Positions 43,983 to 49,660 are shown, counted from the first letter of the stretch. The stretch is 64,000 bases of DNA from an uncultured Candidatus Saccharibacteria bacterium (GCA_964551495.1 CAZKCA010000005.1:5705-69704), one strand, 5' to 3'. Numbers and translations are program-made. Notes: generated by a model from the letters alone, not told the origin.

Positions 43983-44070
43983 AAAATAGATAATTAAAAT
44001 GATTAGCAAAAACTTTCTTCGGAAAGTTTTTTGTTTGCAAAGGTTTTACCTTTATTGTAAAGTAGCAGTT

Positions 44071-45132
44071 ATGTCAAAACACTATAAAGATATAAAAATT
44101 ACAAATCTTCCAGATAGAGAAATAGAAATAATCGGTGCCATCACTGTAGAAAAAATGACTTCTGCTAGAGATGAAGCTTTGAAAAAAATAACCGAAAATA
44201 TAGAGTTAGACGGCTTTAGAAAAGGCAATGCTCCTGTTTCTTTGGTTGCCCAAAAAGTAGGTGAAATGAAAATAATGGAAGAAGCAGCAGAGATTGCTTT
44301 AAATGACGTATACCCTTCTATTCTAGAGGACCACAAGGTAGATGCCATAGGTAGACCAGAAATACATATAACTAAAATTGCCCCTGAAAATCCTCTAGAA
44401 TTTAAAATAAAAACAGCCCTAATGCCAGAAGTTAAACTTGGTAACTATAAAAAAATCGCAAAAGAGGTTAAAAAAGAAGATAAATTTGAAGTGGAAGAAA
44501 AAGAAGTGGATGAAGCTATACTAAATATTAGAAAAAATGTTGCTCATCAAATGATGCATGAAAAAGAAGGTCTGCACGAACATGATCATAGTCACGGAGA
44601 AATAAAAGATGAAGACCTTCCAGAAGTAGATGAAAATTTCCTAAAAATGATTGGCGATTTTAAAGATGTAGAAGATTTGAAAACAAAAATCAAAGAAGGG
44701 ATACTGAAAGAGAAAGAAATGAGAGCCAAGGATAAAAATAGGATAGATGTTTTGGAAAAAATAATGGAAGAGTCTACCATAGAAATACCTAAGGTAATAA
44801 TAGATGGAGAATTGGACAAAATGATGGCTCAGTTTACAGACGAAATAGAAAGAGTTGGTATAAAAATAGAAGACTATTTAAAACAAATAAATAAAACCGA
44901 AGAAAACCTAAGAGACGAATGGAAAGAGACAGCTACAAAGAGAGCAAAATCTCAAATAATCCTAAATACAATCGCTAGAGAAGAAAAAATTTCTCCAGAC
45001 GAAGAAGAAGTTAAAAAAGAAATGGAACACATCCTCTCTCATCACAAAGATGCAGACAGATTTCGTGTAAGAATGTATGTAGAAACATTTCTAACAAACG
45101 AGTTGGTATTTAAATTCTTGGAAGATAAATAA
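44071..45132 (+). CDS. tig: Trigger factor (short form)
   Basis: DGFRKGNAPVSLV ribosome-binding motif region; upstream of clpP. Confidence 0.7.
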   Translation: MSKHYKDIKITNLPDREIEIIGAITVEKMTSARDEALKKITENIELDGFRKGNAPVSLVAQKVGEMKIMEEAAEIALNDVYPSILEDHKVDAIGRPEIHITKIAPENPLEFKIKTALMPEVKLGNYKKIAKEVKKEDKFEVEEKEVDEAILNIRKNVAHQMMHEKEGLHEHDHSHGEIKDEDLPEVDENFLKMIGDFKDVEDLKTKIKEGILKEKEMRAKDKNRIDVLEKIMEESTIEIPKVIIDGELDKMMAQFTDEIERVGIKIEDYLKQINKTEENLRDEWKETATKRAKSQIILNTIAREEKISPDEEEVKKEMEHILSHHKDADRFRVRMYVETFLTNELVFKFLEDK

Positions 45133-46102
45133 TTCCCCTCTCCAATTTGTAACTATTACCATGCCTCAAAAGTCCCAAATAAGATTGGGTGGTGGAATCT
45201 TTTCTGTTATTTAACAACAGATTTCTAAACATTTTCTTCTTCGTAGCTGTCCTCAAAACCCTATGCTTAGGAAAATGAACCCAACCAAGAAAATCTACTC
45301 CAGAATAAAATGTTTTTATAAACACCTTATTTGGATGTAAAGAGAGTTTTAATTCTTCTTCCAAAAAATTTTGTATTTTTGGAATAAGTTCCAAAAGATA
45401 ATTTTTACTTTGACTCAAGACAACAAAATCATCTGCATATCTTACATAATATTTTACTTTCATTTTGTGTTTTATCCACTGATCAAACTTATTCATATAA
45501 ATATTTACTAAAAGTTGACTAGTTAGATTACCTAAAGGCAAGCCTTTGCCTTCCTCTGTAGAATAGAAACTTTTTATAACTTTCTCCAAAAGCCAACTTA
45601 TATCTTTATCTTCCATACTTTCATTTAAAATTTTTAAAAGAATTTCTTGGTCAATAGAAGCAAAAAACTTTCTAATATCACATTTCAAAATCCAACAAGT
45701 TTTAGTATTGTTTTTAGAAACTTTATTTGCAAAACTTTTAAACCTTTTTATAGCTCTATGAGTACCTTTTCCCAAACGGCAGGAATATGAATCGTAAATG
45801 AAAATTTTATCAAAATGCGGGTACAAAATTCTATAAATTGAATGGTGTAAAAGTCTGTCCCTAACTAAAGCCTTGTGGATATTTCTAGGCTTAGGATCAG
45901 AAATATTAAAAGCTTTATAGTATCCATGAGTATATTTTTTATCTTTTAAATCATTGTGTAATTCAAAGATATTATCCATTAAATTAAGTTGGAATTCTTG
46001 AACATCTTTCTTTCTACTTTTACCCCTCAAAAATTCTTTCCAAGCCAGAAGCAAGTTTTCTAAAGAAATGATATCGTTATATGTAGCATAAATTTTTTTC
46101 AT
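45110..46102 (-). CDS. Diversity-generating retroelement reverse transcriptase
   Basis: RT motifs include VRYADDFVV and LPLGNLTSQLLVNIY (SQ-type motif 4 typical of DGR RTs). ~330 aa with no maturase or endonuclease domains. AT-rich like the host. Confidence 0.85.
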   Translation of the reverse strand: MKKIYATYNDIISLENLLLAWKEFLRGKSRKKDVQEFQLNLMDNIFELHNDLKDKKYTHGYYKAFNISDPKPRNIHKALVRDRLLHHSIYRILYPHFDKIFIYDSYSCRLGKGTHRAIKRFKSFANKVSKNNTKTCWILKCDIRKFFASIDQEILLKILNESMEDKDISWLLEKVIKSFYSTEEGKGLPLGNLTSQLLVNIYMNKFDQWIKHKMKVKYYVRYADDFVVLSQSKNYLLELIPKIQNFLEEELKLSLHPNKVFIKTFYSGVDFLGWVHFPKHRVLRTATKKKMFRNLLLNNRKDSTTQSYLGLLRHGNSYKLERGIIYLPRI

Positions 46103-46135
46103 TTTTATAATTACAACATATATAATTAAACTATA

Positions 46136-46518
46136 ATGACCCCCCCCCCGAAGCAAGACAGCTAAAGTTACTACCTATTATTAATAACGCTCTAGCTATA
46201 TATAAATTATGGCACACCTATTCAAATGATTTGCCCAAAAATTTACGTTATACATTGGGAGGAAAAATAGAAAATACTTTTATCTCAATACTGGAAAGCC
46301 TTTTTATTGCAACATATCAAAAGAAAGAAGAAAAATTGCCAACTATAGTTTATACTATGAAAAAAACAGATCTTCTTAAATTTTTCTTGAGAATTACATG
46401 GGAGCTACATGGGATAGATAATAAAAAGTATCTAGTTATTTCAGAAAAAGTTAATGAACTTGGGAGAATGATTGGAGGTTGGAAAAAAGGATTAGAAACA
46501 AAAACTCCCCGACCTTAA
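46136..46518 (+). pseudogene. avd: DGR accessory variability determinant (Avd-like four-helix-bundle protein); its ATG is out of frame with the body across a C9 tract
   Basis: Body frame reads ...LKLLPIINNALAIYKLWHTYSNDLPKNLRYTLGGKIEN...LGRMIGGWKKGL, an Avd / 23S-rRNA-intervening-sequence-protein-like pattern. The only plausible ATG (46136) is +1 relative to this frame, separated by cccccccccc at 46141-46149. The in-frame stretch begins 46126. Confidence 0.7.
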
Positions 46519-46541
46519 GCCGAGGAGAAAACCAACAGTTT

Positions 46542-46648
46542 CGAGAGAACACATGGTTGCCATCGTTCCACCTGTTCGGGTCCTCGACGGAGTTCGCATT
46601 GACATTCCAGCCGTCGTCGTTCCAGTTCACGTTGACCGCGCGAAGCAC
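46542..46648 (-). repeat. DGR template repeat (TR)
   Basis: 107 bp matching 47021..47127 except at 16 positions, all A in the minus-strand sense of this copy. Not inside a real gene: ORF-track 46451..46648 is just its AAC-rich translation. Confidence 0.85.
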
Positions 46649-47010
46649 TACCCTGCGTTATCGTATACAAGATCATCTATATCACCGCCAGCCAAACCAT
46701 GACCAGCTGAATTTTATCCGGGACATCAAAGTCCGCTAATCTCATATACCAATTCTTGTTATTTTTTTGAAGAGACTTTCCTCACTCTCACACAAGGTAT
46801 ACCCAATGTGACTCTCGAGAAAAATATCCTAAGACCATGACGTGAAAGCCGTAGCCGTCACGTAACACATGATTTCGGAAATAAGTATAGCAAGAGAAAT
46901 TTAAATATAAAAAATTGACCCCCAATCCGCCGAAGCAGACTGAGGGTCAAAGGGCCCAAGAGGCAAAGGATCAGGCTTGCGCCGTAGCCGAAGGTTCCGA
47001 GGGCACGATT

Positions 47011-47682
47011 TCAAGAATTGCGAGAGAACACAAGGTAGCCACCGCTCCACCTGACCGGGTCCACGACGGAGTCCGCATAGACAAACCAGCCGTCGTCGAG
47101 CCAGCGCACGATGACCGCGCGAAGCACACCAGCACTGTCCTTGATGTAGAAAACATTGGCGTAGCCGTTGTTCAAGAGAACACCTTCTTCACCATTCTTC
47201 TGCTTCTCCATAAGGGAGAGCACCTCCGACAGGGTGGTTTCAGCTTTCGCTTCGCCACCGAGTTCAGTGATGATCGGACCGTCCACCGATGCCTTGCGCA
47301 GTTTTGCATAGCGCAGGGTCTGTTCGCTGATCAGGTCTTCGGTTTTGCCGTCGCCGTTCAGGAACCATGAGGTGAAGTTGTCGCCAAGGTAGCTGATCTT
47401 CACCGGAGCGTTACGCTTGGTGTTGACCACAAACTTCTCTTTGGCGACGAGCTTGCTGGTGGTCGCATTGACCACGATCGTCGAGACGAGCTCGAGAATC
47501 GAGGGTGTGGGTTTCGGTTCGGCCACCTGCGTGACTTGGCTACTCCAACAGGGTTCCTTGCGGAGAAACCTCTTCAGTTCCTCTTCCCATTGGTCGCCTT
47601 CCTGGCCACCAAGGTTCACAATGAGCTGATTGAGCGGTCCGGTTGTGAATTCGCGGAGCGCCTTGCTGAGCATGGTATCCAT
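47011..47682 (-). CDS. DGR target protein with C-terminal variable C-type-lectin-like region
   Basis: 223 aa ending ...LRAVIVRWLDDGWFVYADSVVDPVRWSGGYLVFSRNS. GC-rich codon usage unlike neighbouring genes; followed by a hairpin and T-run. Confidence 0.75.
   Translation of the reverse strand: MDTMLSKALREFTTGPLNQLIVNLGGQEGDQWEEELKRFLRKEPCWSSQVTQVAEPKPTPSILELVSTIVVNATTSKLVAKEKFVVNTKRNAPVKISYLGDNFTSWFLNGDGKTEDLISEQTLRYAKLRKASVDGPIITELGGEAKAETTLSEVLSLMEKQKNGEEGVLLNNGYANVFYIKDSAGVLRAVIVRWLDDGWFVYADSVVDPVRWSGGYLVFSRNS
47021..47127 (-). repeat. DGR variable repeat (VR) at the 3' end of the target gene
   Basis: Counterpart of the TR with T/G/C at the 16 TR adenine positions. Encodes the C-terminal ~36 aa of ORF 47011..47682. 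Confidence 0.85.
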
Positions 47683-47826
47683 GGTCAGTTTTCCTTTCTA
47701 AAAAAAGCAGGTTTGTATTAGGCCAAATGTTGAAAAAGGCCTTCCTGCACCTTCTCTATATATTATATCAAATCTTAGTGTTTTTGTCAAATATAATTTT
47801 GCTACAATATAATAATTGTATTAAAA

Positions 47827-48534
47827 TTACTTACCTAATAGAAAAAGAGTAGAAACTGCCATACTTGCTGTTTCGCCCCTTAGAACAAGAGGTCCTAGAG
47901 AATATATTTCTATATTTTTTGATTTAAAAAACCCAATTTCTTCTTCTGAGAATCCCCCTTCTGGACCCAGGAAAACTAATGTTGAACCCTCTCGATCTAA
48001 AACTTCTCTGTCTAATAAAAGTCCTTCTGGATGGAGAGCTAAAACATTTTGAAAATCTTTTGGTATAGGACCTTCCAAAAACTCTGTTAATTTTACAGGT
48101 TCGTTTATTACCACCAAATCTCCCCTGCCAGATTGTTCAGCGGATTCAATGATAATTTTTTTAGCTCTTTCTATATTTAAATTTTTCTTTTCGCTTCTTT
48201 CAGAAATAATTGGTTGAATAAAAGAAACTCCAAGTTCTGTAGCTTTTTGTATCACAAGTTCTGTGTTTTCTTTTTTTAGGAGTGAAACTGCTAAACCTAG
48301 AAACCTTGCTGGTTTTGGTTTTTTCTTTTTGGAAACAATTTCTAATGTTGCACCTAAGTTTCTAAGACTTGATATATATGCAAGGTATTCAAATCCTGAT
48401 CCATCAAAAAGAATAACTTCACTTCCTACATTGTAGCGAAAAACATTCTTCCATTGGTGAACCAAATCTTTGTCTGAGATGTTTATGTTATCTCCATCTA
48501 TTTGTTTTTCTATATAAAATCTATGCAACCTCAT
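47827..48534 (-). CDS. rsmE: 16S rRNA (uracil1498-N3)-methyltransferase RsmE
   Basis: MRLHRFYI start and C-terminal RsmE-like SPOUT region. Confidence 0.7.
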   Translation of the reverse strand: MRLHRFYIEKQIDGDNINISDKDLVHQWKNVFRYNVGSEVILFDGSGFEYLAYISSLRNLGATLEIVSKKKKPKPARFLGLAVSLLKKENTELVIQKATELGVSFIQPIISERSEKKNLNIERAKKIIIESAEQSGRGDLVVINEPVKLTEFLEGPIPKDFQNVLALHPEGLLLDREVLDREGSTLVFLGPEGGFSEEEIGFFKSKNIEIYSLGPLVLRGETASMAVSTLFLLGK

Positions 48535-48571
48535 CTTATGGAATAGCATACGTCAAGTCCCCTAAAAAGAA

Positions 48572-48597
48572 AAGCCCGAGCACAGTGGCTCGGGCTA
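48572..48597 (-). terminator. Rho-independent terminator
   Basis: gcccgagccactgtgctcgggc hairpin followed by TTTTCTTTTT on the minus strand. Confidence 0.6.
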
Positions 48598-48599
48598 GG

Positions 48600-48725
48600 C
48601 AAACTAGAGGTGAGCTGGTCTGGCCTGGACCTGAGAAGATCCACATCTCACCGCCTGGTCAAAACTGGGAAACCCAGCTATAGGTGAGTGGCAAAAGCAC
48701 TCACCTGTTTGATTGTATTGGGAAA
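48600..48725 (-). ncRNA. Candidate structured small RNA (possibly SRP RNA / 4.5S-like)
   Basis: On the minus strand: nested helices ggtgagtg/cactcacc, ctggg/cccag and ggtgag...ctcacc enclosing CUCAGGUCCAGGCCAGACCAGC, which resembles the conserved SRP domain IV GUCAGGUCC...AGCAGC. Followed by terminator 48572..48597. Confidence 0.3.
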
Positions 48726-48798
48726 GTTTTTTCCCACACCTCTTACAATGAGTCCTCCTTTCACTGGACTCATCTTCAGATTTCTTCTTTTTGGCCAT
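48604..48798 (-). CDS. Doubtful 64-aa Cys-containing ORF (MAKKKKSEDESSERRTHCKRCGKK...)
   Basis: ORF exists, but its 3' two-thirds is GC-rich, highly self-complementary sequence; may be the translation of a structured RNA. Confidence 0.2.
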   Translation of the reverse strand: MAKKKKSEDESSERRTHCKRCGKKLSQYNQTGECFCHSPIAGFPSFDQAVRCGSSQVQARPAHL

Positions 48799-48973
48799 GT
48801 AAAACACCTTTCTCATATTATTATACACCATTTATATAATTTTTGTCAACAAAATTGCCTAAAAGATATTTTCTGTTATACTCATAACAGTTAACAAGTA
48901 AACAATCACCCTAAAGTAAAGCGTAGTTTACTATGGGGTAAAATACATTTAATAAATTATTAATAGAATAATA

Positions 48974-49104
48974 AATAATATATGTTGATACCTACAGTTA
49001 CCCCAGTAGTAGAGCACAGCTCACTACGGGGCGAGAAGTGGTAATATTAACTTAGTGACCTTAACAATCCAAATAATTAAATAATATATGTTGATACCTA
49101 CAGT
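48974..49104 (+). repeat. Duplication of ~30 bp spanning the clpP start codon flanking an 81-bp hairpin-containing insert
   Basis: aataatatatgttgatacctacagt occurs at 48974..48998 and 49080..49104. The insert 48999..49079 carries hairpin ccccagtagtagagcacagctcactacgggg. Confidence 0.7.
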
Positions 49105-49660
49105 AATAGAAAAATCACAGTTTGGAGAGAGAGCGTACGATATATTCTCTCGCCTACTTAGAGAAAACATAATTTTCCTAGACGGACCAATAGATGACCA
49201 TACGGCAAACCTAATTATTGCCCAGATGTTATTTTTGCAATCAGAAGATCCTAAAAAAGATATTTCTTTTTATGTTAATTCTCCAGGAGGATCTGTCTCT
49301 GCTGGACTAGCTATAGTAGATACAATGAATCATATAAAAAATGATGTTTCTACAGTCTGTGTTGGAATAGCTGCTTCTATGGGAGCTGTTATACTTTCTG
49401 CCGGAACAAAAGGAAAAAGATTTGCTCTACCAAATGCAGAAGTTATGATACACCAGCCACTTTTAAGAGGACTTGAAGGTCAGGCTTCTGATATAGAAAT
49501 TTCGGCTAAAAATATAGTAAGAACAAGAGAAAACTTATACAAAATACTTTCAAAAAATACAGGTCAAACTGTTTCTAAAATAGAAAAAGATGCGGATAGA
49601 GACTTCTTTATGTCAGCAGAAGAAGCTAAAAAATACGGAATTATAGACAAAGTACTTTAG
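49088..49660 (+). CDS. clpP: ATP-dependent Clp protease proteolytic subunit
   Basis: 190 aa with conserved Ser/His/Asp regions (GAASMGA, MIHQP). Confidence 0.9.

What the first reader, a model, noticed from the sequence alone, without database searches (positions are those of the whole stretch)
45110..47682. Complete diversity-generating retroelement: RT, Avd, TR and VR with 16/16 adenine-specific differences
Seen directly:
- ORF 45110..46102(-) carries reverse-transcriptase motifs (VRYADDFVV, LPLGNLTSQLLVNIY).
- Two 107-bp repeats, 46542..46648 and 47021..47127, are identical except at 16 positions.
- At every one of these the 46542 copy has A (minus-strand sense) and the 47021 copy has T, G or C.
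- The 47021 copy encodes the last ~36 residues of ORF 47011..47682(-).
- The TR translation is AAC/Asn-rich (LRAVNVNWNDDGWNVNANSVEDPNRWNDGNHVFSRN); the VR reads LRAVIVRWLDDGWFVYADSVVDPVRWSGGYLVFSRNS.

From established knowledge:
- Adenine-specific TR-to-VR mutagenesis is the defining DGR signature.
- A VR at the C-terminus of a W/G-rich region is typical of C-type-lectin-fold DGR targets.
- An SQ-containing RT motif 4 is a DGR-RT hallmark.
- An Avd-like four-helix-bundle ORF (…LGRMIGGWKKGL) lies between the RT and the TR.

DGRs are known to be common in CPR genomes, so the class is not new. This particular element and its target are worth characterising.
Basis: partly seen in the sequence, partly recalled or inferred. 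Interest (0 to 1): 0.9.

Follow-up and report, generated by a model that had tools for sequence, protein, structure and literature searches.

The report
DGR with a slippery-repeat switch in avd
This is a real diversity-generating retroelement in a Patescibacteria (CPR) chromosome, and its essential helper gene avd is interrupted by a slippage-prone run of ten C's that recurs across the whole lineage and probably switches the targeted-mutation machine on and off.

Summary

- **avd orientation and frame.** avd lies on the opposite strand. Its only usable ATG (46136) is out of frame because of a C10 tract (46140..46149).
- **The repeat is lineage-wide.** All 86 related cassettes have the inverted avd. 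83 carry a simple repeat at this exact spot: poly-C of 6-15 nt, or CT/CA/AG/GCCA repeats. 22 are in frame, 57 are out of frame and 4 are ambiguous.
- **Population evidence.** In 20 assemblies of one sibling strain, the recurrent cassette differences are four VR sites (all TR adenines) and the tract length (8 or 9).
- **Structured leader.** A covarying RNA leader precedes the TR.
- **Composition.** The target has GC3 0.72, against about 0.22 for host genes.

Best reading: a known CPR-type DGR whose activity is gated by repeat slippage in avd. I found no published description of this gate.

The parts
47762..47790 (-). Promoter-like site for the target gene (TTGACA-17-TATAAT with TG)
   Evidence: 12/12 consensus match. 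It lies in AT-rich host-like DNA just upstream of the GC-rich target ORF.
47011..47682 (-). DGR target (variable protein) gene, 223 aa. It has an N-terminal helical module with FLRKEPCW, a Pro-rich linker, and a ~160-aa domain with weak C-type-lectin-like fold that ends in the VR.
47021..47127 (-). Variable repeat (VR)
   Evidence: 16/16 differences from the TR lie at TR adenines, at codon positions 1 or 2.
47015..47031 (-). IMH-like 3' boundary of the VR: invariant GTGTTCTCTCG followed by the VR-specific CAATTC
   Evidence: The differences from the TR (CGCAATTC against CGAAACTG) are fixed in all nine related cassettes. Function is inferred by analogy with the Bordetella IMH/IMH* (PMC5758913).
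46915..46950 (-). GC-rich inverted repeat plus T-run, 60-95 nt after the VR. It is the terminator of the target mRNA and possibly the counterpart of the post-IMH inverted repeat.
   Evidence: 16-pair stem followed by TTTTTT. Conserved in the alignment of nine cassettes.
46884..46911 (-). Promoter-like site for the TR-containing RNA (TTTATA-16-TATACT with TG)
   Evidence: The TGcTATACT element is conserved in related cassettes. The transcription start is inferred.
46656..46865 (-). Structured RNA leader directly 5' of the TR: P1 hairpin (RT-9-like, within Rfam match 46754..46865), P2 hairpin, and P3 domain (46656..46756)
   Evidence: Rfam RT-9 RF03080 scores 32.4 bits, below the gathering score of 46.1, E 0.0014. 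RNAalifold finds 27 pairs with compensatory changes among 9 sequences. A covariance model of P3 finds it in 72 of 86 cassettes, always just 5' of the TR. 95.2% of cells are paired, 20 of 22 pairs covary, and the covariation score is 0.807 against 0.11-0.18 for slid controls.
46542..46648 (-). Template repeat (TR), with 9 AAY codons and 25 adenines
46536..46541 (-). IMH*-like TR-specific hexamer AAACTG
   Evidence: Fixed in all nine cassettes.
46495..46527 (-). Hairpin plus U-run immediately 3' of the TR. It is an intrinsic-terminator-like 3' end of the TR RNA, and the avd stop codon (46516..46518, + strand) sits in its loop.
   Evidence: 10-pair stem followed by TTTTTGTTT. The stem sequence differs between cassettes but pairing is kept.
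46136..46518 (+). avd (accessory variability determinant), inverted relative to RT, TR and target. It reads ATG 46136, C10 tract, then the Avd frame 46150..46518. As assembled, the ATG is out of frame; one more or two fewer C's (C11 or C8) would restore the frame.
   Evidence: Pfam bAvd 7e-12. NCBIfam DivGenRetAVD 1e-17 covers profile positions 1-104, equal to residues 8-113 of the translation from 46150. PHROG Avd 9e-18. Frame analysis.
46140..46149 (+). C10 homopolymer (G10 on the RT strand) in the first codons of avd: a candidate slipped-strand switch
   Evidence: It is the only homopolymer of 7 or more and the only simple repeat in the 64 kb; 0.003 runs of 10 or more are expected. A repeat sits at the same position in 83 of 86 related cassettes. 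72 of 73 G/C runs of 8 or more in 536 kb of related loci lie here. The tract is polymorphic (G8 or G9) among 20 assemblies of one sibling strain.
45110..46102 (-). DGR reverse transcriptase, 330 aa
   Evidence: Pfam RVT_1 7.7e-27. Best PDB hit 8ub7_A at 1.2e-39, against 6e-19 for group II or retron-type RTs. PHROG 1423 at 2.5e-106. LGNLTSQ and YADD are invariant in the lineage.

Best explanation
The region 45110..47790 is a chromosomal DGR of the Patescibacteria-specific lineage. Its gene order is target/VR, structured RNA leader, TR, inverted avd, RT.

Shown:
- The TR and VR differ only at TR adenines.
- The RT is of the DGR type.
- Avd is present.
- The TR lies in a conserved RNA with a covarying 5' leader of about 210 nt and a 3' hairpin plus U-run.
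- avd starts at an ATG that is separated from the Avd frame by a hypermutable repeat.

Inferred mechanism:
1. A transcript of about 375 nt (leader, TR, hairpin) is made from its own promoter.
2. RT together with Avd copies the TR into cDNA, misincorporating opposite adenines.
3. The cDNA replaces the VR up to the IMH-like boundary. This rewrites 16 codons (about 5e14 proteins) on the ligand-binding face of a small lectin-like protein that has no signal peptide.
4. Avd is required for retrohoming in the Bordetella system. Gain or loss of a repeat unit in the C tract by slipped-strand mispairing would therefore switch Avd synthesis, and with it diversification, on or off. The switch would be heritable, reversible and stochastic.
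5. In this assembly (C10) the switch is OFF, so the present VR allele is locked in.
For: DGR identity:
- 16/16 adenine-specific differences, p 4.7e-13.
- RT closest to 8ub7_A, which I recognise as bRT.
- Avd family hits.
- Fixed IMH/IMH*-like differences.
- Activity of the lineage in nature: the ten members of the P0085 cluster differ only at VR variable positions apart from one N-terminal S-to-L substitution. The four polymorphic VR nucleotides among 20 assemblies are all TR adenines.

Switch:
- All 86 related cassettes with enough upstream DNA have avd inverted next to RT.
- 77 have poly-C of 6-15 nt (mode 10) in the first codons of avd. Six others have (AG)12, (CA)8, (CA)12, (CT)12, (CT)17 or (GCCA)9 at the same place. 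Only 3 have no repeat.
- Frame state against the upstream ATG: 22 in frame, 57 out of frame and 4 ambiguous, which is close to random thirds. All 3 repeat-less genes are in frame.
- No in-frame canonical start lies between the tract and the conserved Avd N-terminus. The Avd profile begins 8 codons after the tract.
- 72 of 73 G/C runs of 8 or more in 536 kb lie at this site. C10 is the only repeat in the 64-kb window.
- L002 and L007 have 99% identical flanks but C8 and C11.
- In one strain, 16 assemblies have G8 (OFF) and 4 have G9. G9 restores the frame in 3 of them; L132 also carries a 1-nt deletion in avd. The gene caller then yields a 130-aa Avd in L134. Over 2540 nt the only other differences are the four VR sites and two singleton deletions.
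- That Avd is essential for retrohoming is stated in PMC10053308 and is established knowledge for Bordetella phage BPP-1.

RNA.
Against: - No reads are available for this window, so tract heterogeneity in this organism itself is not shown. A consensus G/C homopolymer length can be wrong by one.
- The 8-versus-9 difference between assemblies could in part be assembler choice. Two singleton deletions in JGI assemblies show that some indel noise exists.
- RNA polymerase slippage or ribosomal slippage on CCC codons could supply some Avd whatever the DNA frame. The DNA state would then tune expression rather than switch it.
- Whether Avd is required by this RT is untested. Some DGRs lack avd (PMC5758913).
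- The target's biological role is unknown.
- The window's target has lost the family's 14-residue C-terminal tail through an indel just after the VR. This could affect target recognition.
- I could not read Paul et al. 2017, the main CPR DGR paper. The claim that the repeat is undescribed rests on searches of the held library only.
Confidence: 0.67

Rival explanations
1. This is an ordinary, constitutively competent DGR. The out-of-frame avd is rescued at the RNA or protein level, by RNA polymerase slippage on the 10-nt homopolymer or by ribosomal frameshifting on CCC proline codons. On this reading the tract is a recoding or attenuation device that keeps Avd scarce, and it is not a heritable DNA switch.
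For: Long homopolymers are known slippage sites for polymerases. CCC-C is a known +1 frameshift-prone site, and runs of proline stall ribosomes (established knowledge). Most sampled cassettes are out of frame, yet the lineage is clearly active in nature. In poly-C cassettes the tract always encodes Pro-Pro-Pro in the Avd frame.
Against: Six cassettes carry di- or tetranucleotide repeats at the same site. These do not encode polyproline and are classic substrates of DNA slippage, not ribosomal slippage. The required shift is +1 nt in 30 poly-C cassettes and -1 nt in 24, so no single programmed shift fits. Tract length does differ at the DNA level between near-identical sequences.
Confidence: 0.17
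2. The repeat acts on the other strand. As G(n) it lies in the promoter spacer or 5' UTR of the RT gene, and length changes tune RT transcription, as with promoter-located repeats in Neisseria, Haemophilus or Bordetella fim.
For: avd and RT are divergent with almost no intergenic DNA: 33 nt in the window, and overlapping ATGs in relatives. -10-like hexamers (TAATAT, TAGAAT, TATAGT) often abut the G tract on the RT strand. A promoter-like site for RT lies inside avd.
Against: Repeats of 24-36 nt, such as (CT)17 and (GCCA)9, and C15 are too long for a -35/-10 spacer. No convincing -35 lies at a fixed distance. The repeat always falls inside the avd reading frame, a few codons before the conserved Avd N-terminus. 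The repeat-less genes read through in frame. Both effects could coexist.
Confidence: 0.06
3. The element in this window is a decaying or dead DGR. avd is a frameshifted pseudogene, the target is truncated, and the adenine pattern is a fossil of past activity.
For: avd is out of frame. The target has lost its 14-aa tail through an indel next to the IMH-like region. Remnants do exist in relatives: L005 has a deleted RT, and P0035 is a target fused to a TR-like end.
Against: The RT ORF, the Avd frame downstream of the tract, the TR, the RNA leader and both hairpins are all intact and match the lineage consensus. There is no non-adenine TR/VR difference in 107 nt. The only lesion in avd lies exactly in the conserved repeat, as in two thirds of relatives. 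Other family members also end right after SRNS.
Confidence: 0.06
4. The tract-length states are sequencing or assembly artefacts of G/C homopolymers, and the true state is always in frame.
For: Homopolymers are error-prone. Two unrelated singleton 1-nt deletions occur among 20 assemblies.
Against: Artefacts cannot create a conserved repeat at one site in 83 independent assemblies, nor the di- and tetranucleotide versions. If the truth were always in frame, most consensus sequences should be in frame, but only 22 of 79 are. Tract differences occur in 4 of 20 assemblies, against about 4e-5 per nt elsewhere in the cassette.
Confidence: 0.04

Closest known systems
Bordetella phage BPP-1 DGR (mtd-avd-TR-brt)
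   Same: Adenine-specific TR-to-VR information flow. VR at the C-terminus of the target. AAY-rich TR. IMH/IMH*-like fixed differences at the 3' boundary. A GC-rich inverted repeat downstream of the VR. An RT of the same family (8ub7_A, 1.2e-39) with an SQ motif. An Avd partner.
   Different: avd lies between TR and RT on the opposite strand, not upstream on the same strand. The conserved structured RNA lies mainly 5' of the TR, with only about 45 nt (a hairpin plus U-run) 3' of it, whereas the Bordetella spacer RNA is 3' of the TR. The element is chromosomal and not phage-borne. The target is a small protein without a signal peptide, not a tail-fibre tip. avd carries a hypermutable repeat.
CPR/Patescibacteria DGRs (architecture B3 of Wu et al. 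2018, PMC5758913; DGR clade 2 of Roux et al. 2021, PMC8144416)
   Same: Host group. Small targets without recognisable domains or transmembrane segments. The order and orientation of avd and TR differ from the prototype. Chromosomal location. The element appears to be a member of this group.
   Different: Nothing defining differs. What is added here is not mentioned in either paper: the repeat in avd, the covarying leader RNA, the GC3-rich target/TR module, and a confident model placing this target family near the C-type-lectin fold.
Simple-sequence contingency loci (poly-G/C tracts of Campylobacter, Neisseria and Bordetella; tetranucleotide repeats of Haemophilus)
   Same: A repeat in the 5' coding region. 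Both ON and OFF frames are seen. Length is polymorphic between near-identical genomes. Different repeat units occur at the same position in different lineages.
   Different: Known contingency genes mostly encode surface structures, restriction-modification enzymes or their regulators. Here the switched gene is the cofactor of a targeted-mutagenesis machine, so one hypermutable site controls another. Switching rates have not been measured.
Rfam RT-9 RNA (RF03080)
   Same: The P1 hairpin with loop GGYUACGGCU followed by CAUG aligns to the RT-9 consensus over the full model, and it lies near an RT gene.
   Different: The score is below the gathering threshold (32.4 against 46.1 bits). RT-9 covers only the first part of the leader. 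The strongly covarying P3 domain next to the TR has no Rfam match.
DGR variable proteins with C-type-lectin fold (Mtd, TvpA 2Y3C, archaeal AvpA)

Membership tests
Diversity-generating retroelement | TR/VR repeat pair whose differences are confined to TR adenines | tested here: met
   16/16 differences, p 4.7e-13. The same holds in nine related cassettes, with 14-24 adenine differences and 0-2 others.
Diversity-generating retroelement | Reverse transcriptase of the DGR clade, with the [LIV]GxxxSQ motif | tested here: met
   Best solved relative is 8ub7_A at 1.2e-39, against 6e-19 for group II RTs. LGNLTSQ and YADD are invariant. No formal phylogeny was built.
Diversity-generating retroelement | VR lies inside a protein-coding target, with adenines at codon positions 1 and 2 and no stop codons reachable | tested here: met
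Diversity-generating retroelement | Accessory protein Avd | tested here: met
   bAvd, DivGenRetAVD (64 bits, below the curated cut-off of 80) and the PHROG Avd family. As assembled, the gene lacks an in-frame start.
Diversity-generating retroelement | IMH/IMH* asymmetry at the 3' end of the repeats | tested here: inconclusive
   Fixed VR/TR differences (CGCAATTC against CGAAACTG) occur in all nine cassettes. Their function is not testable here.
Diversity-generating retroelement | Ongoing diversification, meaning population variation restricted to the VR | not testable with these tools
   No reads or second assembly exist for this window. The feature is met for a sibling strain whose target is 76% identical.
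CPR-type DGR (architecture B3 / clade 2) | Patescibacteria host, with avd and TR order and orientation differing from the prototype | tested here: met
   All 86 related cassettes have the order target, TR, inverted avd, RT. The related genomes are Patescibacteria MAGs. The exact drawing of B3 could not be seen, because only the text of PMC5758913 is held.
C-type-lectin-fold variable protein | CLec/FGE-like fold carrying the VR | tested here: inconclusive
C-type-lectin-fold variable protein | Sequence match to FGE-sulfatase or DUF1566-type domains | tested here: not met
   No Pfam, NCBIfam or PHROG hit, and no PDB sequence hit.
Simple-sequence contingency locus | Repeat inside the 5' coding region, so that unit gain or loss changes the reading frame | tested here: met
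   C10 lies between ATG 46136 and the Avd frame. 83 of 86 relatives have a repeat at this site.
Simple-sequence contingency locus | Length polymorphism among closely related genomes, with both ON and OFF alleles | tested here: met
   22 in frame and 57 out of frame. C8 against C11 with 99% identical flanks. G8 in 16 and G9 in 4 assemblies of one strain. Not shown for the window's own population.
Simple-sequence contingency locus | High-frequency reversible switching with a phenotypic consequence | not testable with these tools
   This needs reads, cultures or reconstitution.
Group II intron or retron RT | Score above the family cut-off, with a maturase domain or msr/msd RNA | tested here: not met
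   TIGR04416 scores 151 bits against a cut-off of 300, and the retron St85 model 66 against 235. Rfam finds no intron or retron RNA.
Rfam RT-9 RNA | Score at or above the gathering threshold | tested here: not met
   32.4 bits against 46.1, although the full model is matched and the P1 hairpin aligns well.

The most novel reading that the evidence does not exclude
Across a whole Patescibacteria DGR lineage, targeted hypermutation is controlled by a second hypermutable site. A simple repeat in the first codons of avd flips Avd synthesis on and off, so a population always holds a minority of diversifying cells and a majority with a locked-in variable protein. This would be the first genetic regulator described for DGR activity. 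The same lineage uses a DGR RNA whose protein-binding scaffold lies 5' of the TR. It also carries its target plus TR as a compositionally foreign, exchangeable GC-rich module.
Probability: 0.55. Interest if true: 0.78.

Novelty: new variant of a known kind. Interest (0 to 1): 0.62.

Why it matters
How DGR mutagenesis is restrained is an open question. Unrestrained rewriting destroys a useful variable protein as easily as it creates one. Metagenomic time series have suggested alternating phases of diversification and selection (PMC8144416).

A slippage-prone repeat in the essential cofactor gene gives a concrete and directly testable mechanism for such phases. The test is simple: count tract lengths in reads and relate the in-frame fraction to VR turnover.

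The result also matters for annotation. Gene callers truncate or miss avd in two thirds of these cassettes, so surveys may under-report Avd in CPR DGRs.

The covarying leader RNA offers a second natural design of DGR template RNA to compare with the Bordetella structure. The compact cassette, with a 223-aa soluble target of about 5e14 variants, may be a candidate for engineered continuous-evolution systems.

Tried and rejected
- **No record of the window's own proteins.** Exact-sequence look-ups of the RT and target found nothing, and the cluster of P0001 has one unnamed member. The source organism could not be named and no second assembly of this strain was found.
- **Target annotation failed.** Pfam, NCBIfam, PHROGs, a PDB sequence profile, Foldseek against PDB and Foldseek against viral structures gave nothing significant.
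- **First structure model unusable.** It was built from 35 close homologs and reached pLDDT 59.6. A second model from 79 diverse sequences reached 93.8.
- **afdb50 unavailable**.
- **Avd has no PDB sequence hit**.
- **Paul et al. 2017 is not held**.
- **Adenine avoidance rejected as the cause of the GC-rich target.** The sense strand has more A than T.
- **Amino-acid composition rejected as the cause.** GC3 is 0.72, against 0.19-0.24 in the neighbours.
- **A sequence-specific role for poly-G rejected**, whether G-quadruplex or RNA element. CT, CA, AG and GCCA repeats replace it in six cassettes.
- **A start codon downstream of the tract rejected.** The first in-frame ATG, GTG or TTG is TTG 46231, which would cut off the first ~20 profile-matched residues.
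- **No second VR in the window**.

Full report
**1. The observation**

On the minus strand, 46542..46648 and 47021..47127 align without gaps over 107 nt and differ at 16 positions. At each one the 46542 copy has A and the 47021 copy has T, G or C. The 46542 copy has 25 A's, so the chance that 16 random differences all hit adenines is 4.7e-13.

All 16 differences fall at codon position 1 or 2 of ORF 47011..47682(-). No third copy exists in the window. The TR has 9 AAY codons and 16 codons that can vary. None can become a stop codon, and about 5e14 proteins are reachable.

Similarity continues for nine more bases. There is a 17th A-to-C difference and then two non-adenine differences. These three differences, VR CGCAATTC against TR CGAAACTG, are the same in nine related cassettes. 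They therefore look like the fixed IMH/IMH* asymmetry that marks the 3' limit of homing in known DGRs (PMC5758913).

**2. The proteins**

*RT.* The RT (45110..46102, minus strand) hits Pfam RVT_1. Its best solved relative is the 328-residue chain 8ub7_A at E 1.2e-39; group II and retron-type RTs follow at 6e-19 or worse. The aligned sequence of that chain (IPIGSLTSQLFANVYG, YMDDIVV) is one I recognise from memory as the Bordetella phage bRT. The window's RT scores below the cut-offs of the group II intron, retron and defence RT models. It has the LGNLTSQ and YADD motifs, which are invariant in 15 lineage members.

*Avd.* The Avd-like frame matches Pfam bAvd (7e-12), NCBIfam DivGenRetAVD (1e-17, full profile, below the curated cut-off) and the PHROG 'Avd protein of DGR'.

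*Target.* The 223-aa target has no hit in any family library and no signal peptide or hydrophobic segment.
- It has more than 753 homologs at 65-84% identity and 3407 clusters at the 50% level, all from Patescibacteria-type assemblies where a source is named.
- In an alignment of 35 homologs the protein is conserved everywhere except at the positions templated by TR adenines.
- A model from 79 diverse sequences is confident, with pLDDT 93.8.
- I read this as a divergent lectin-like scaffold, not a proven one.

**3. avd is inverted and out of frame**

avd is on the + strand, opposite to RT, TR and target. The Avd profile starts at about 46171. The first in-frame ATG, GTG or TTG is TTG 46231, which would delete the first ~20 residues matched by the Avd profile. 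The ATG at 46136 is followed by A, ten C's (46140..46149), then the Avd frame. It is out of frame by one base; C11 or C8 would restore the frame.

This C10 is the only homopolymer of seven or more, and the only simple repeat of any kind, in the 64-kb window. 0.003 runs of ten or more are expected.

**4. The repeat is a lineage-wide feature**

I collected 48 loci through the target and 80 through the RT. All 86 cassettes with enough upstream DNA have avd inverted directly upstream of RT.

| Feature at the avd 5' end | Cassettes |
|---|---|
| Poly-C tract of 6-15 nt (mode 10) | 77 |
| Other repeat: (AG)12, (CA)8, (CA)12, (CT)12, (CT)17, (GCCA)9 | 6 |
| No repeat | 3 |

| Frame relative to the upstream ATG (83 cassettes with a repeat) | Cassettes |
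|---|---|
| In frame | 22 |
| Out of frame | 57 |
| Ambiguous | 4 |

Among the 77 poly-C cassettes, 30 need one more base and 24 need one fewer. All three repeat-less genes read through in frame. Of 73 G/C runs of eight or more in 536 kb of these loci, 72 are at this site.

Different repeat units at one position, with frames spread close to random thirds, are the signature of a contingency locus. That pattern argues against a peptide motif, a poly-G RNA element or a promoter spacer. Repeats of 24-36 nt cannot be promoter spacers.

**5. Population evidence from a sibling strain**

The exact target proteins P0085 and P0271 occur on many contigs from one groundwater series. In 20 independent assemblies (L129-L148) I compared 2540 nt spanning target, TR, avd and RT. 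The only differences are:
- four VR positions, all opposite TR adenines;
- the tract length, G8 in 16 assemblies and G9 in 4;
- two singleton 1-nt deletions.

G9 puts avd in frame, and the gene caller then reports a 130-aa Avd in L134. G8 does not. One G9 assembly (L132) carries one of the singleton deletions inside avd, so avd is in frame in 3 of the 4.

The ten members of that protein cluster share the first 185 residues, apart from one S-to-L substitution in P0277. They carry at least five VR alleles that differ only at the variable positions. So this lineage diversifies in nature, and the avd tract is the only other recurrently polymorphic site in the cassette. This was not shown for the window's own organism, for which no other assembly or reads were found.

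**6. The template RNA**

The 360 nt between VR and TR are conserved in length and sequence across cassettes. They contain, in order on the minus strand:
- a GC-rich hairpin with a T-run after the target (46950..46915);
- a promoter-like TGnTATACT (46911..46884);
- three structured elements.

P1 aligns to Rfam RT-9 over the whole model but below threshold. RNAalifold finds 27 pairs with compensatory changes among nine sequences. A covariance model of the P3 domain (46656..46756) finds it in 72 cassettes, always just 5' of the TR and whatever the target family. In those matches 95.2% of cells are paired and 20 of 22 pairs covary. The covariation score is 0.807, against 0.11-0.18 when partners are slid.

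Directly 3' of the TR is a hairpin with a U-run (46527..46495). Its stem changes between cassettes but stays paired, and the avd stop codon sits in its loop.

I infer a self-contained RNA of about 375 nt whose scaffold is 5' of the TR. In the Bordetella element the functional spacer is 3' of the TR. The transcript ends and the priming site are not shown.

**7. Composition**

The target and TR form the only large GC island in the window: 55% against a 34% mean. Target GC3 is 0.72, against 0.19-0.24 for tig, rsmE, clpP, rny, avd and RT.

In 17 cassettes the target stays at 0.51-0.60 GC in all but one (L027, 0.41), while host flanks range from 0.29 to 0.57 and avd and RT follow the host. Third-position identity between targets is 0.44-0.77, against 0.30-0.47 for most RT pairs from the same cassettes. 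One pair shows the opposite pattern: 97% RT identity but only 81% target identity.

Target/TR modules and RT/avd therefore have different histories. Module exchange or biased gene conversion among paralogs are possible causes, and neither was tested.

**8. Comparison with what is known, and verdict**

The element is a member of the CPR-type DGRs. Wu et al. report that an architecture differing in avd and TR order and orientation (B3) makes up 90% of CPR DGRs, and that their targets fall in VR classes of unknown fold (PMC5758913). Roux et al. define a Patescibacteria-restricted clade 2 whose targets lack recognisable domains (PMC8144416).

Neither paper mentions a repeat or frameshift in avd. 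Full-text searches combining DGR or Avd with homopolymer, phase variation or slipped-strand found nothing relevant. Paul et al. 2017 could not be read.

The DGR itself is a new member of a known kind. The repeat-gated avd, the 5' leader RNA and the GC-rich module make the lineage a new variant that is worth experimental follow-up.

Noticed in passing
window 46500..47700: The target plus TR form a sharp compositional island: GC 0.55 and GC3 0.72, against 0.34 and ~0.22 for the host genes, including the cassette's own avd and RT. The same holds in related cassettes whatever the host GC. Targets are more alike at synonymous sites than the RTs of the same cassettes, and one pair shows the reverse. 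The cause is unexplained; module exchange or biased gene conversion are candidates.
   Followed up: partly
window 46965..47020: The window's target stops right after ...FSRNS. Most homologs continue with VLESSEPSAPAQA. That tail is still readable here in another frame (LEIVPSEPSATAQA*), so a small indel just 3' of the IMH-like boundary truncated the protein.
   Followed up: partly
P0035 (293 aa; NCBI/Logan, longest contig 579860 bp): This target homolog has Asn at nearly every variable position of its C-terminus (NVNWNDDGWNVNANS...) and continues like the sequence downstream of a TR. It looks like a VR-TR recombination that fused the target to the template.
   Followed up: no
L001, L004, L008, L009, L012, L013, L016-L019, L021, L023, L028, L029: Full-length target homologs occur with no RT or avd within 6 kb. 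L016 and L027 carry two target copies. These may be remote or orphan targets, or paralogs that could serve as recombination partners.
   Followed up: no
P0121 (926 aa): One representative contains five tandem matches to the ~170-aa target domain. It is either a multi-domain relative or a mis-assembly.
   Followed up: no
L030, L035, L036, L039, L043, L044 and window 47545..47682: The N-terminal helical module with the invariant FLRKEPCW motif is shared by DGR targets that have quite different C-terminal VR classes (such as ...RFLAVRKK and ...VVPQL). It appears to be a portable N-terminal module of unknown role. Most targets of the lineage are 200-240 aa.
   Followed up: partly
L129-L148 gene calls; window 46231..46518: Automatic gene callers truncate avd to 58 aa or omit it when the tract is out of frame. 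Surveys may therefore under-count Avd in CPR DGRs.
   Followed up: partly
L132 (avd) and L134 (RT): Two singleton 1-nt deletions outside the repeat occur among 20 assemblies of one strain. One is in avd, in an assembly that also has the in-frame G9 tract. They may be assembly noise or real second-site inactivation.
   Followed up: no
L002, L007, L014 and others; window 46102..46136: The avd and RT start codons are back to back or overlapping on opposite strands (for example TCATGA). Each gene's promoter must therefore lie inside the other gene. In the window only 33 nt separate the two ATGs.
   Followed up: no
window 48550..48831: A second small GC-richer patch (about 0.47) lies between rsmE and clpP. 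It holds a 75-aa Cys-rich ORF (CKRCGKK...CFCH), and no Rfam family reaches threshold there.
   Followed up: partly
window 43999..49660: The DGR, together with rsmE, sits between trigger factor and clpP, genes that are often adjacent in bacteria. The RT's 3' end overlaps the tig 3' end by 23 nt (45110..45132). There are no phage genes nearby, which is consistent with a chromosomal, non-viral element.
   Followed up: no
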